From: Eledone cirrhosa
Lineage: Eukaryota
NCBI GenBank assembly: GCA_964016885.1
Contig: CAXHJY010001125.1
Span: forward strand, 62,001-126,000
Direction: 5' to 3'
DNA: 64,000 nt
Shown in pieces: positions 12,090-12,151 of the stretch. Made by a program: the position numbers and the translations under genes. Numbering within the stretch: the first letter of the stretch is position 1; each line of letters starts with the position of its first letter. The notes beneath the pieces were generated by a model. It had not been told where the DNA came from, did not search any database, and was given only the letters and a program-made list of their open reading frames with translations.

Positions 12090-12151
12090 ATTTTATTATA
12101 TATATTTCAAGGGTACCCAAAACACTTTGGTACGCTCTCATCAGATAAAAT
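12090..12151 (-). ncRNA. Type I minimal hammerhead ribozyme (family A)
   Basis: attttat-CTGATGA-GAGCGTACC-loop-GGTACCCTT-GAAA-TATATATA-ataaaat; intact core and 7-bp stem I. Confidence 0.75.

What the first reader, a model, noticed from the sequence alone, without database searches (positions are those of the whole stretch)
12090..12151. Three diverged hammerheads with intact cores and covarying stem II (family A)
Copies at 12090, 14756 and 43425 all keep CUGAUGA, GAAA, an AUA cleavage triplet and a 7-bp stem I. Stem II changes compensatorily (first pair G-U, G-C, A-U; a U-A to C-G swap) and its loop length varies. Stem III is a TA-like palindrome (ATATATAT or ATATGTAT) that resembles the microsatellite target. 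These are the best candidates for active ribozymes.
Basis: partly seen in the sequence, partly recalled or inferred. Interest (0 to 1): 0.75.

Follow-up and report, generated by a model that had tools for sequence, protein, structure and literature searches.

The report
Hammerheads of Hydra-clade Penelope retroelements
The three predicted self-cutting RNA folds are real but are end pieces of three young families of a known kind of jumping gene; most sampled copies were copied straight through the uncut motif, likely from the start of the element's own RNA, so they are ordinary leftovers and not shown to be active ribozymes.

Summary
Observation confirmed: three minimal type I hammerheads on the minus strand (shuffles give 0.005). 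They are not one ageing family. Each is a close member of its own subfamily (copy 3 has 18 other 100%-identical loci). Each subfamily's hammerhead ends a Hydra-clade Penelope-like ORF elsewhere in the genome (L031, L275, L271). All five tested stem II pairs covary between subfamilies, which points to selection on past master elements, not on these solo copies. The target-mimic idea is unsupported: families with other palindromes also end in (TA)n. In 89 copies picked only by their 3' tail, 5 of 72 at risk end at the cleavage site (6 expected) and 67 read through. 5' ends instead pile up at an initiator-like motif 105-134 nt upstream (subfamily 3: 11 of 13; subfamily 2: 9 of 14; subfamily 1: 3 of 8, not significant). 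So the copies likely come from uncleaved transcript leaders. Cleavage is untested; a dimer is predicted to be needed. This scan already reported the same kind of element on other pieces of this genome.

The parts
11955..12420 (-). 5'-truncated copy of Hydra-clade Penelope-like element, subfamily 1 (end of 3' UTR, hammerhead, tail); long 3' end at +141 from the cleavage site, in (TA)n
   Evidence: 95% identical to the 3' end of the full element in L031; 5' end at -324
12089..12152 (-). Minimal type I hammerhead 1; first stem II pair G-U; predicted cleavage 12097/12096
11955..12038 (-). Tail between the short (about +58) and long (+141) 3' ends of subfamily 1
   Evidence: many one search matches stop at query 383 or 466
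12174..12184 (-). Motif shared by the three subfamilies, resembling a 5' splice donor, about 40-44 nt downstream of the initiator-like motif; splicing not shown
   Evidence: Penelope's intron starts 46 nt after its start site (PMC2377424)
12222..12230 (-). Initiator-like motif (TCACT core), candidate transcription start of subfamily 1
   Evidence: TCACT is called Inr-like in rotifer Penelope pLTRs (PMC3846280)
14710..14865 (-). Subfamily 2 arm: begins at the initiator-like motif (-103), carries hammerhead 2, ends at the short 3' end (+53) in (TA)n
   Evidence: full element L275
14755..14809 (-). Minimal type I hammerhead 2; canonical G-C first stem II pair; predicted cleavage 14763/14762
14871..15010 (+). 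Inverted arm of the same insertion (+12 to +150, long 3' end with tail, no hammerhead); gives the 44-bp inverted repeat with 14707-14750
43392..43557 (-). Subfamily 3 copy: begins at -126 beside the initiator-like motif, carries hammerhead 3, interrupted at about +39 by an unrelated ~190-bp repeat
   Evidence: ORF link in 15 of 20 loci
43424..43489 (-). Minimal type I hammerhead 3; first stem II pair A-U; predicted cleavage 43432/43431
14458..14709 (.). (TA)n/TACA microsatellite target at the short end of copy 2; a 7.4-kb array (15010-22430) flanks the long end

Best explanation
The three motifs are hammerhead folds in the terminal repeats of three subfamilies of Hydra-clade Penelope-like retroelements, left as 5'-truncated insertions at TA microsatellites that were likely reverse-transcribed from uncleaved element RNA and are predicted to cut only weakly, as dimers. 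Shown: element anatomy, ORF linkage, two fixed 3' ends per subfamily, covariation between subfamilies, no excess of 5' ends at the cleavage site, and a pile-up of 5' ends at an upstream motif in two of three subfamilies. Inferred: the element's endonuclease nicks (TA)n and its RT starts internally at one of two sites (+50/+53/+58 or +141/+142/+150). It copies back through the intact hammerhead and often runs off the RNA's 5' end at an initiator-like start site 105-134 nt upstream of the cleavage site, giving 160-280-bp solo or back-to-back copies. Also inferred: the compensatory stem II changes and the palindromic stem III were selected in the master elements for strand-swapped double-hammerhead cleavage.
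For: L031 holds an inverted arm, a direct repeat, an ORF with RWR, DKT, YRDD, CxCX5C and GIY-YIG-like motifs, and the subfamily 1 hammerhead ending in (TA)n. L275 is the same for subfamily 2. 15 of 20 loci picked by the subfamily 3 RT carry its hammerhead downstream on the same strand (two of these look like one duplicated event). The subfamily 3 EN has CxCX5C, CxxC before E and CxH after N, as defined for Hydra (PMC8557442 section 11). Long 3' ends are followed by a TA run in 34 of 37, 12 of 15 and 41 of 59 sites (not de-duplicated; 13 of the other 18 subfamily 1 sites run into the ORF start). In back-to-back insertions one arm often has the short end and the other the long end, like the one-sided PLE tail. 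204 of 204 cells pair, and all 5 stem II pairs change on both sides. A monomer with a 2-bp stem III lies 5.7-7.2 kcal/mol above the ensemble; the double hammerhead is about -20 versus -8 to -9 for two such monomers. 5' ends of 89 tail-selected copies: 5 of 72 at risk stop within 7 nt of the site (6.0 expected) and 67 read through. In a 20-nt window at the motif: 11 of 13 (expected 1.2), 9 of 14 (1.5), 3 of 8 (1.1). An Anolis PLE starts RT internally at two sites and uses unprocessed RNA (PMC11167929).
Against: No cleavage, transcription or start site was measured. The motif window was set after seeing the data; a position-blind scan gives P=0.0004, 0.036 and 0.21 for subfamilies 3, 2 and 1. 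The samples are the top 30 of each search, so young copies, and include the query loci and two arms of one insertion. 5' ends are BLAST ends, blurred by AT microhomology. The covariation set was 12 hand-picked, related rows that had passed a descriptor requiring stem I and most of the first three stem II pairs; stem I shows no two-sided change. The computed double hammerhead is not the lowest-energy dimer (cofold MFE -22 to -24). A fourth family keeps the initiator-like motif but lacks the donor-like motif. Clade was assigned by motifs, not by a tree.
Confidence: 0.85

Rival explanations
1. The hammerhead cuts (and may re-ligate) the element RNA to make the template, as a unit-length linear or circular RNA, as proposed for PLEs and retrozymes.
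For: Conserved core and covarying stem II. The full element in L031 begins 4 nt after the cleavage site, and 2 of 30 ORF-start copies begin within 5 nt of it. Model proposed in PMC4209133. A re-ligated circle would also give read-through.
Against: No excess of ends at the site (5 versus 6.0 expected). 11 of 30 ORF-start copies keep 134 nt or more upstream of an intact 5' hammerhead. A circle has no 5' end to explain the pile-up at the upstream motif.
Confidence: 0.15
2. The pile-up of 5' ends is a template-switch or RT-stall hotspot, or a product of self-priming on an antisense template, and not a transcription start.
For: Many ends are junctions of inverted arms. Antisense self-priming is argued for rotifer Penelope (PMC3846280). 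Subfamily 1 shows no significant cluster.
Against: The cluster sits on a motif shared by diverged subfamilies, called Inr-like in other pLTRs, and about 40 nt before a donor-like motif, as in Drosophila Penelope. Few copies pass it (2 of 30 in subfamily 3).
Confidence: 0.3
3. The three copies are independently functional host ribozymes, or stem III mimics or guides to the TA target.
For: Intact cores; copies 1 and 2 lie on one strand 2.7 kb apart with compatible palindromes and stem I arms, so a mixed dimer in a read-through RNA is conceivable (sequence only).
Against: Copies are 95-100% identical to many dispersed insertions. Non-TA palindromes occur in TA-inserting families here and in print.
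Confidence: 0.04

Closest known systems
Hydra clade of C-terminal EN+ Penelope-like elements (Craig et al. 2021, PMC8557442; includes Hydra-1_Obim)
   Same: RWK-like and DKT motifs, CxCX5C linker, C-terminal GIY-YIG with CxxC and CxH, (TA)n insertion, type I hammerhead with palindromic stem III near the 3' end, inverted 5'-truncated arm, one-sided tail
   Different: Unit about 3.7-4.4 kb with a 1.2-1.6-kb 3' UTR versus usually under 3 kb; tail about 85-100 nt versus 30-40; longer stem II with a fixed C mismatch; none of the listed Hydra hammerheads matches these
Minimal dimer-type hammerheads of metazoan PLE pseudo-LTRs (Cervera and de la Pena 2014, PMC4209133)
   Same: Type I, long helix II, palindromic stem III, mostly solo copies from truncated PLEs, pairs on opposite strands, many covarying families per genome
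   Different: No extra unpaired base before stem II; the conserved G10.1-C11.1 pair is present only in copy 2 (G-U and A-U in the others)
Poseidon_Ac of Anolis (Frangieh et al. 2024, PMC11167929)
   Same: Two 3' ends that define a tail; AT-rich targets; insertion from unprocessed RNA
   Different: Other clade; its hammerhead overlaps the ORF start, while here it lies about 200 nt upstream of the ATG
Animal non-LTR retrozymes (bioRxiv 10.64898/2026.07.22.740005, part 1 read)
   Same: Type I hammerhead, PLE origin, non-coding copies
   Different: No head-to-tail hammerhead repeats here; these are truncated pieces colinear with autonomous elements

Membership tests
Type I hammerhead ribozyme | Core boxes, stems I and II, NUH site in the right order | tested here: met
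Type I hammerhead ribozyme | Compensatory base changes in helices | tested here: met
   stem II 5 of 5 pairs, stem III 1 of 4, stem I none two-sided; 12 selected rows
Type I hammerhead ribozyme | Match to an Rfam hammerhead model | tested here: not met
   copy 1 region, E<=10; copies 2 and 3 only in the whole-window scan, 150 of 392 rows shown
Type I hammerhead ribozyme | Site-specific self-cleavage | not testable with these tools
   needs an in vitro assay
Minimal dimer-type PLE hammerhead | Short palindromic stem III, unstable as a monomer | tested here: met
   (computed)
Minimal dimer-type PLE hammerhead | G10.1-C11.1 pair and an unpaired base between 9 and 10.1 | tested here: not met
   G-C only in copy 2; no extra base in any copy. 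Several published Hydra hammerheads also lack the extra base
Hydra-clade PLE | RWK motif and DKT in place of DKG | tested here: met
   RWR and DKT in L031, L271; RW motif visible in L275
Hydra-clade PLE | CxCX5C linker and C-terminal GIY-YIG with flanking CxxC and CxH | tested here: met
   L258, L031; Pfam GIY-YIG was hit only below cut-off, in a sister family
Hydra-clade PLE | Absence of the CCHH motif | tested here: inconclusive
   read by eye on L258 only, no alignment to canonical ENs
Hydra-clade PLE | (TA)n insertion and hammerhead at the 3' end | tested here: met
Hydra-clade PLE | Length under 3 kb | tested here: not met
   3.75-kb unit in L275, 4.4 kb in L031; the paper says 'generally', so not strictly defining
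Hydra-clade PLE | Placement in an RT phylogeny | not tested
   reference proteins were seen only as paper text
Non-LTR retrozyme | Tandem units each with a hammerhead | tested here: not met

The most novel reading that the evidence does not exclude
In these Hydra elements the hammerhead does not make the template. It sits in the transcript's 5' leader between a start site and two RT priming sites, and most genomic hammerheads are run-off copies of that uncut leader. The ribozyme is kept deliberately weak (palindromic dimer arm, AUA triplet, fixed stem II mismatch) as a concentration-dependent off-switch that uncaps element RNA when copies pair.
Probability: 0.15. Interest if true: 0.65.

Novelty: new member of a known kind. 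Interest (0 to 1): 0.27.

Why it matters
The motifs are an expected part of a described retroelement clade, so they matter little by themselves. The useful by-product bears on an open question, what PLE hammerheads do. Copy ends act as a fossil record: templates were uncleaved and often ended at a candidate start site. The very young subfamily 3 is a convenient test system for dimer cleavage, start-site mapping and internal priming.

Tried and rejected
(1) Cleavage site as the 5' end of insertions: suggested by L031, rejected on 30 ORF-start copies and 89 tail-selected copies. (2) Stem III as target mimic: rejected. (3) Retrozyme tandem array: none seen. (4) Intron across the hammerhead: no RNA holder listed; contigs of runs of unrecorded kind laid on L048 and L275 showed no GT..AG joint. 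This is no evidence either way, and contig depth was not used as copy number. (5) Pfam, NCBIfam and PDB gave no above-threshold match for the Hydra ORFs. (6) The L045 protein used belongs to a sister Hydra family (about 43-45% identical in RT), not to these three, and was not used for linkage. The EN hit in L191 lies downstream of the tail and was dropped. (7) The first subfamily 3 end map was spoiled by references carrying flanking DNA and was redone on one long reference. L188/L189 were counted as one event. (8) The covariation set covers 12 variants with known coordinates, not all 141 distinct sequences, so it is not a genome-wide test. (9) Luense et al. 2017 (PMC5785218) is not held; known only as cited in PMC6765202.

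Full report
Observation. The window is AT-rich, microsatellite-laden animal DNA from a 3.0-Gb assembly. The details given are right, except that stem I is 8 bp. In copies 1 and 3 it is continued by a further helix of about 11-12 bp. All three have an unpaired C at the fourth position of stem II, unpaired in 12 of 12 aligned variants. Rfam did not recognise copy 1.

What they belong to. Copy 1 lies in a 466-bp stretch with 3,886 first-look candidates in the genome (40 scored). Locus L031 shows the whole, decayed element: an inverted arm, a direct repeat, an ORF with RWR, DKT, YRDD, CxCX5C and GIY-YIG-like motifs, a 1.2-kb 3' UTR, the hammerhead and a 3' end in (TA)n. These are the defining motifs of the Hydra clade (PMC8557442 section 11). 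Copy 2 has 97-99% relatives and a full element in L275. Copy 3 has 18 other loci identical over all 154 bases queried, and its hammerhead follows a Hydra ORF in 15 of 20 loci chosen by RT sequence. RT identity to subfamily 3 is 69% for subfamily 1 and 58% for subfamily 2. The three motifs therefore differ because their master elements differ.

Anatomy of the copies. Each subfamily has two 3' ends: short (about +58, +53, +50 from the cleavage site) and long (+141, +150, +142), both abutting TA runs. In back-to-back insertions one arm often carries the tail and the other does not; window copy 2 is such a case. This matches the one-sided tail in PMC8557442 and PMC3846280 (passages) and the two internal RT start sites shown in vitro for an Anolis element (PMC11167929 parts 1-2 of 4). 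At the subfamily 1 long end the element's own sequence continues with a short TA-like stretch before the ORF, so priming by microhomology to the target is plausible (inference).

Fold. On 12 variants chosen by known coordinates, 204 of 204 cells pair. All five tested stem II pairs change on both sides, one stem III pair does, and stem I varies only through G-U (0 of 500 shuffles reach the covariation score, 31 of 500 reach the count of pairs). The rows are related and pre-filtered, so this supports but does not prove selection. Energies disfavour a monomeric stem III and favour the strand-swapped dimer over two active monomers, though other dimers are lower still. Minimal PLE hammerheads showed no monomer activity and low dimer activity (PMC4209133 parts 1-2 of 4). 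AUA was the slowest of four triplets in a viroid hammerhead (PMC1636495, abstract only). Stem III need not resemble the target: two other families here with GC-containing palindromes end in (TA)n, as do published Hydra families (supplement part 2 of 59).

Do copies record cleavage? If cut RNA were the template, 5' ends should cluster at the site. L031 begins 4 nt after it, but only 2 of 30 ORF-start copies begin within 5 nt. I then sampled copies by tail sequence alone, the top 30 per subfamily (89 after merging one duplicate pair). Five of 72 at risk stop within 7 nt of the site against 6.0 expected, and 67 read through. Ends gather instead at a shared motif with a TCACT core at -129, -105 and -134: 3 of 8, 9 of 14 and 11 of 13 at risk, against 1.1, 1.5 and 1.2 expected. 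That window was chosen after seeing the data; a blind scan gives P=0.21, 0.036 and 0.0004. Window copies 2 and 3 begin there (-103, -126). TCACT is called initiator-like in rotifer Penelope repeats. A donor-like motif follows about 40 nt later in all three subfamilies, as the Drosophila Penelope intron does at 46 nt (PMC2377424 passages), but a fourth family lacks it. The simplest reading is run-off reverse transcription of the uncut 5' leader; a template-switch hotspot is not excluded.

Novelty. Hydra elements, their hammerheads and their TA targeting are in print, including one octopus family. That this genome looks octopus-like is my recall from its composition and was not tested. I found no printed report of 5'-end clustering at a start site in Hydra elements in one targeted search (4 listings, only PMC8557442 read) and five related ones; the library lacks most subscription papers. 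Also read: PMC6765202 and PMC13282606 (passages) and the 2026 retrozyme preprint (part 1 of 5; its supplements were not seen). Earlier notes of this scan describe the same clade, the C mismatch, tail hairpins and start-site-like ends on other pieces of this genome; I reached my reading before seeing them and they are not counted as support.

Verdict. Real motifs, known kind, new subfamilies; activity untested. Interest 0.27.

Noticed in passing
G000, (for example L141:967-3702, L144:907-3699): A sister Hydra family has many uninterrupted frames: about 30 of 93 scored matches have 850 aa or more and no stop in the match; 45,322 first-look candidates. Hydra elements look abundant and recently mobile here.
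   Followed up: partly
window 43200-43391 and a dozen or more other window sites (for example 57117-57305, 55353-55547, 29611-29794): Abundant ~190-bp repeat ending at TA runs; it is inserted into hammerhead copies in several loci (L051, L114, L126, L153).
   Followed up: no
window 30409-42158: 47-bp satellite, 250 copies at 96% match, strong GC skew.
   Followed up: no
window 23123-24271 (+): 382-aa frame with Pfam RVT_1, E 2.8e-30; probably a non-LTR retrotransposon piece.
   Followed up: partly
window 62230-62610 (-): Fragment of another Hydra-like ORF (38% to L141 aa 84-218) beside a TA run.
   Followed up: partly
window 11542-11919 and 25398-25775: 378-bp inverted duplication at 95.5%, each copy ending beside a TA run.
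   Followed up: no
window 10959-11137: Long hairpin centred on (TA)n, made by back-to-back copies of a repeat; it draws spurious miRNA hits below gathering score.
   Followed up: no
tails of subfamilies 1-3 and L151:4110-4200: A short motif in the tail is shared by four diverged families and lies in predicted hairpins; candidate RT-binding signal.
   Followed up: partly
L144:691, L161:1225, L151:9001: Further hammerhead families with long stem II and different palindromes.
   Followed up: partly
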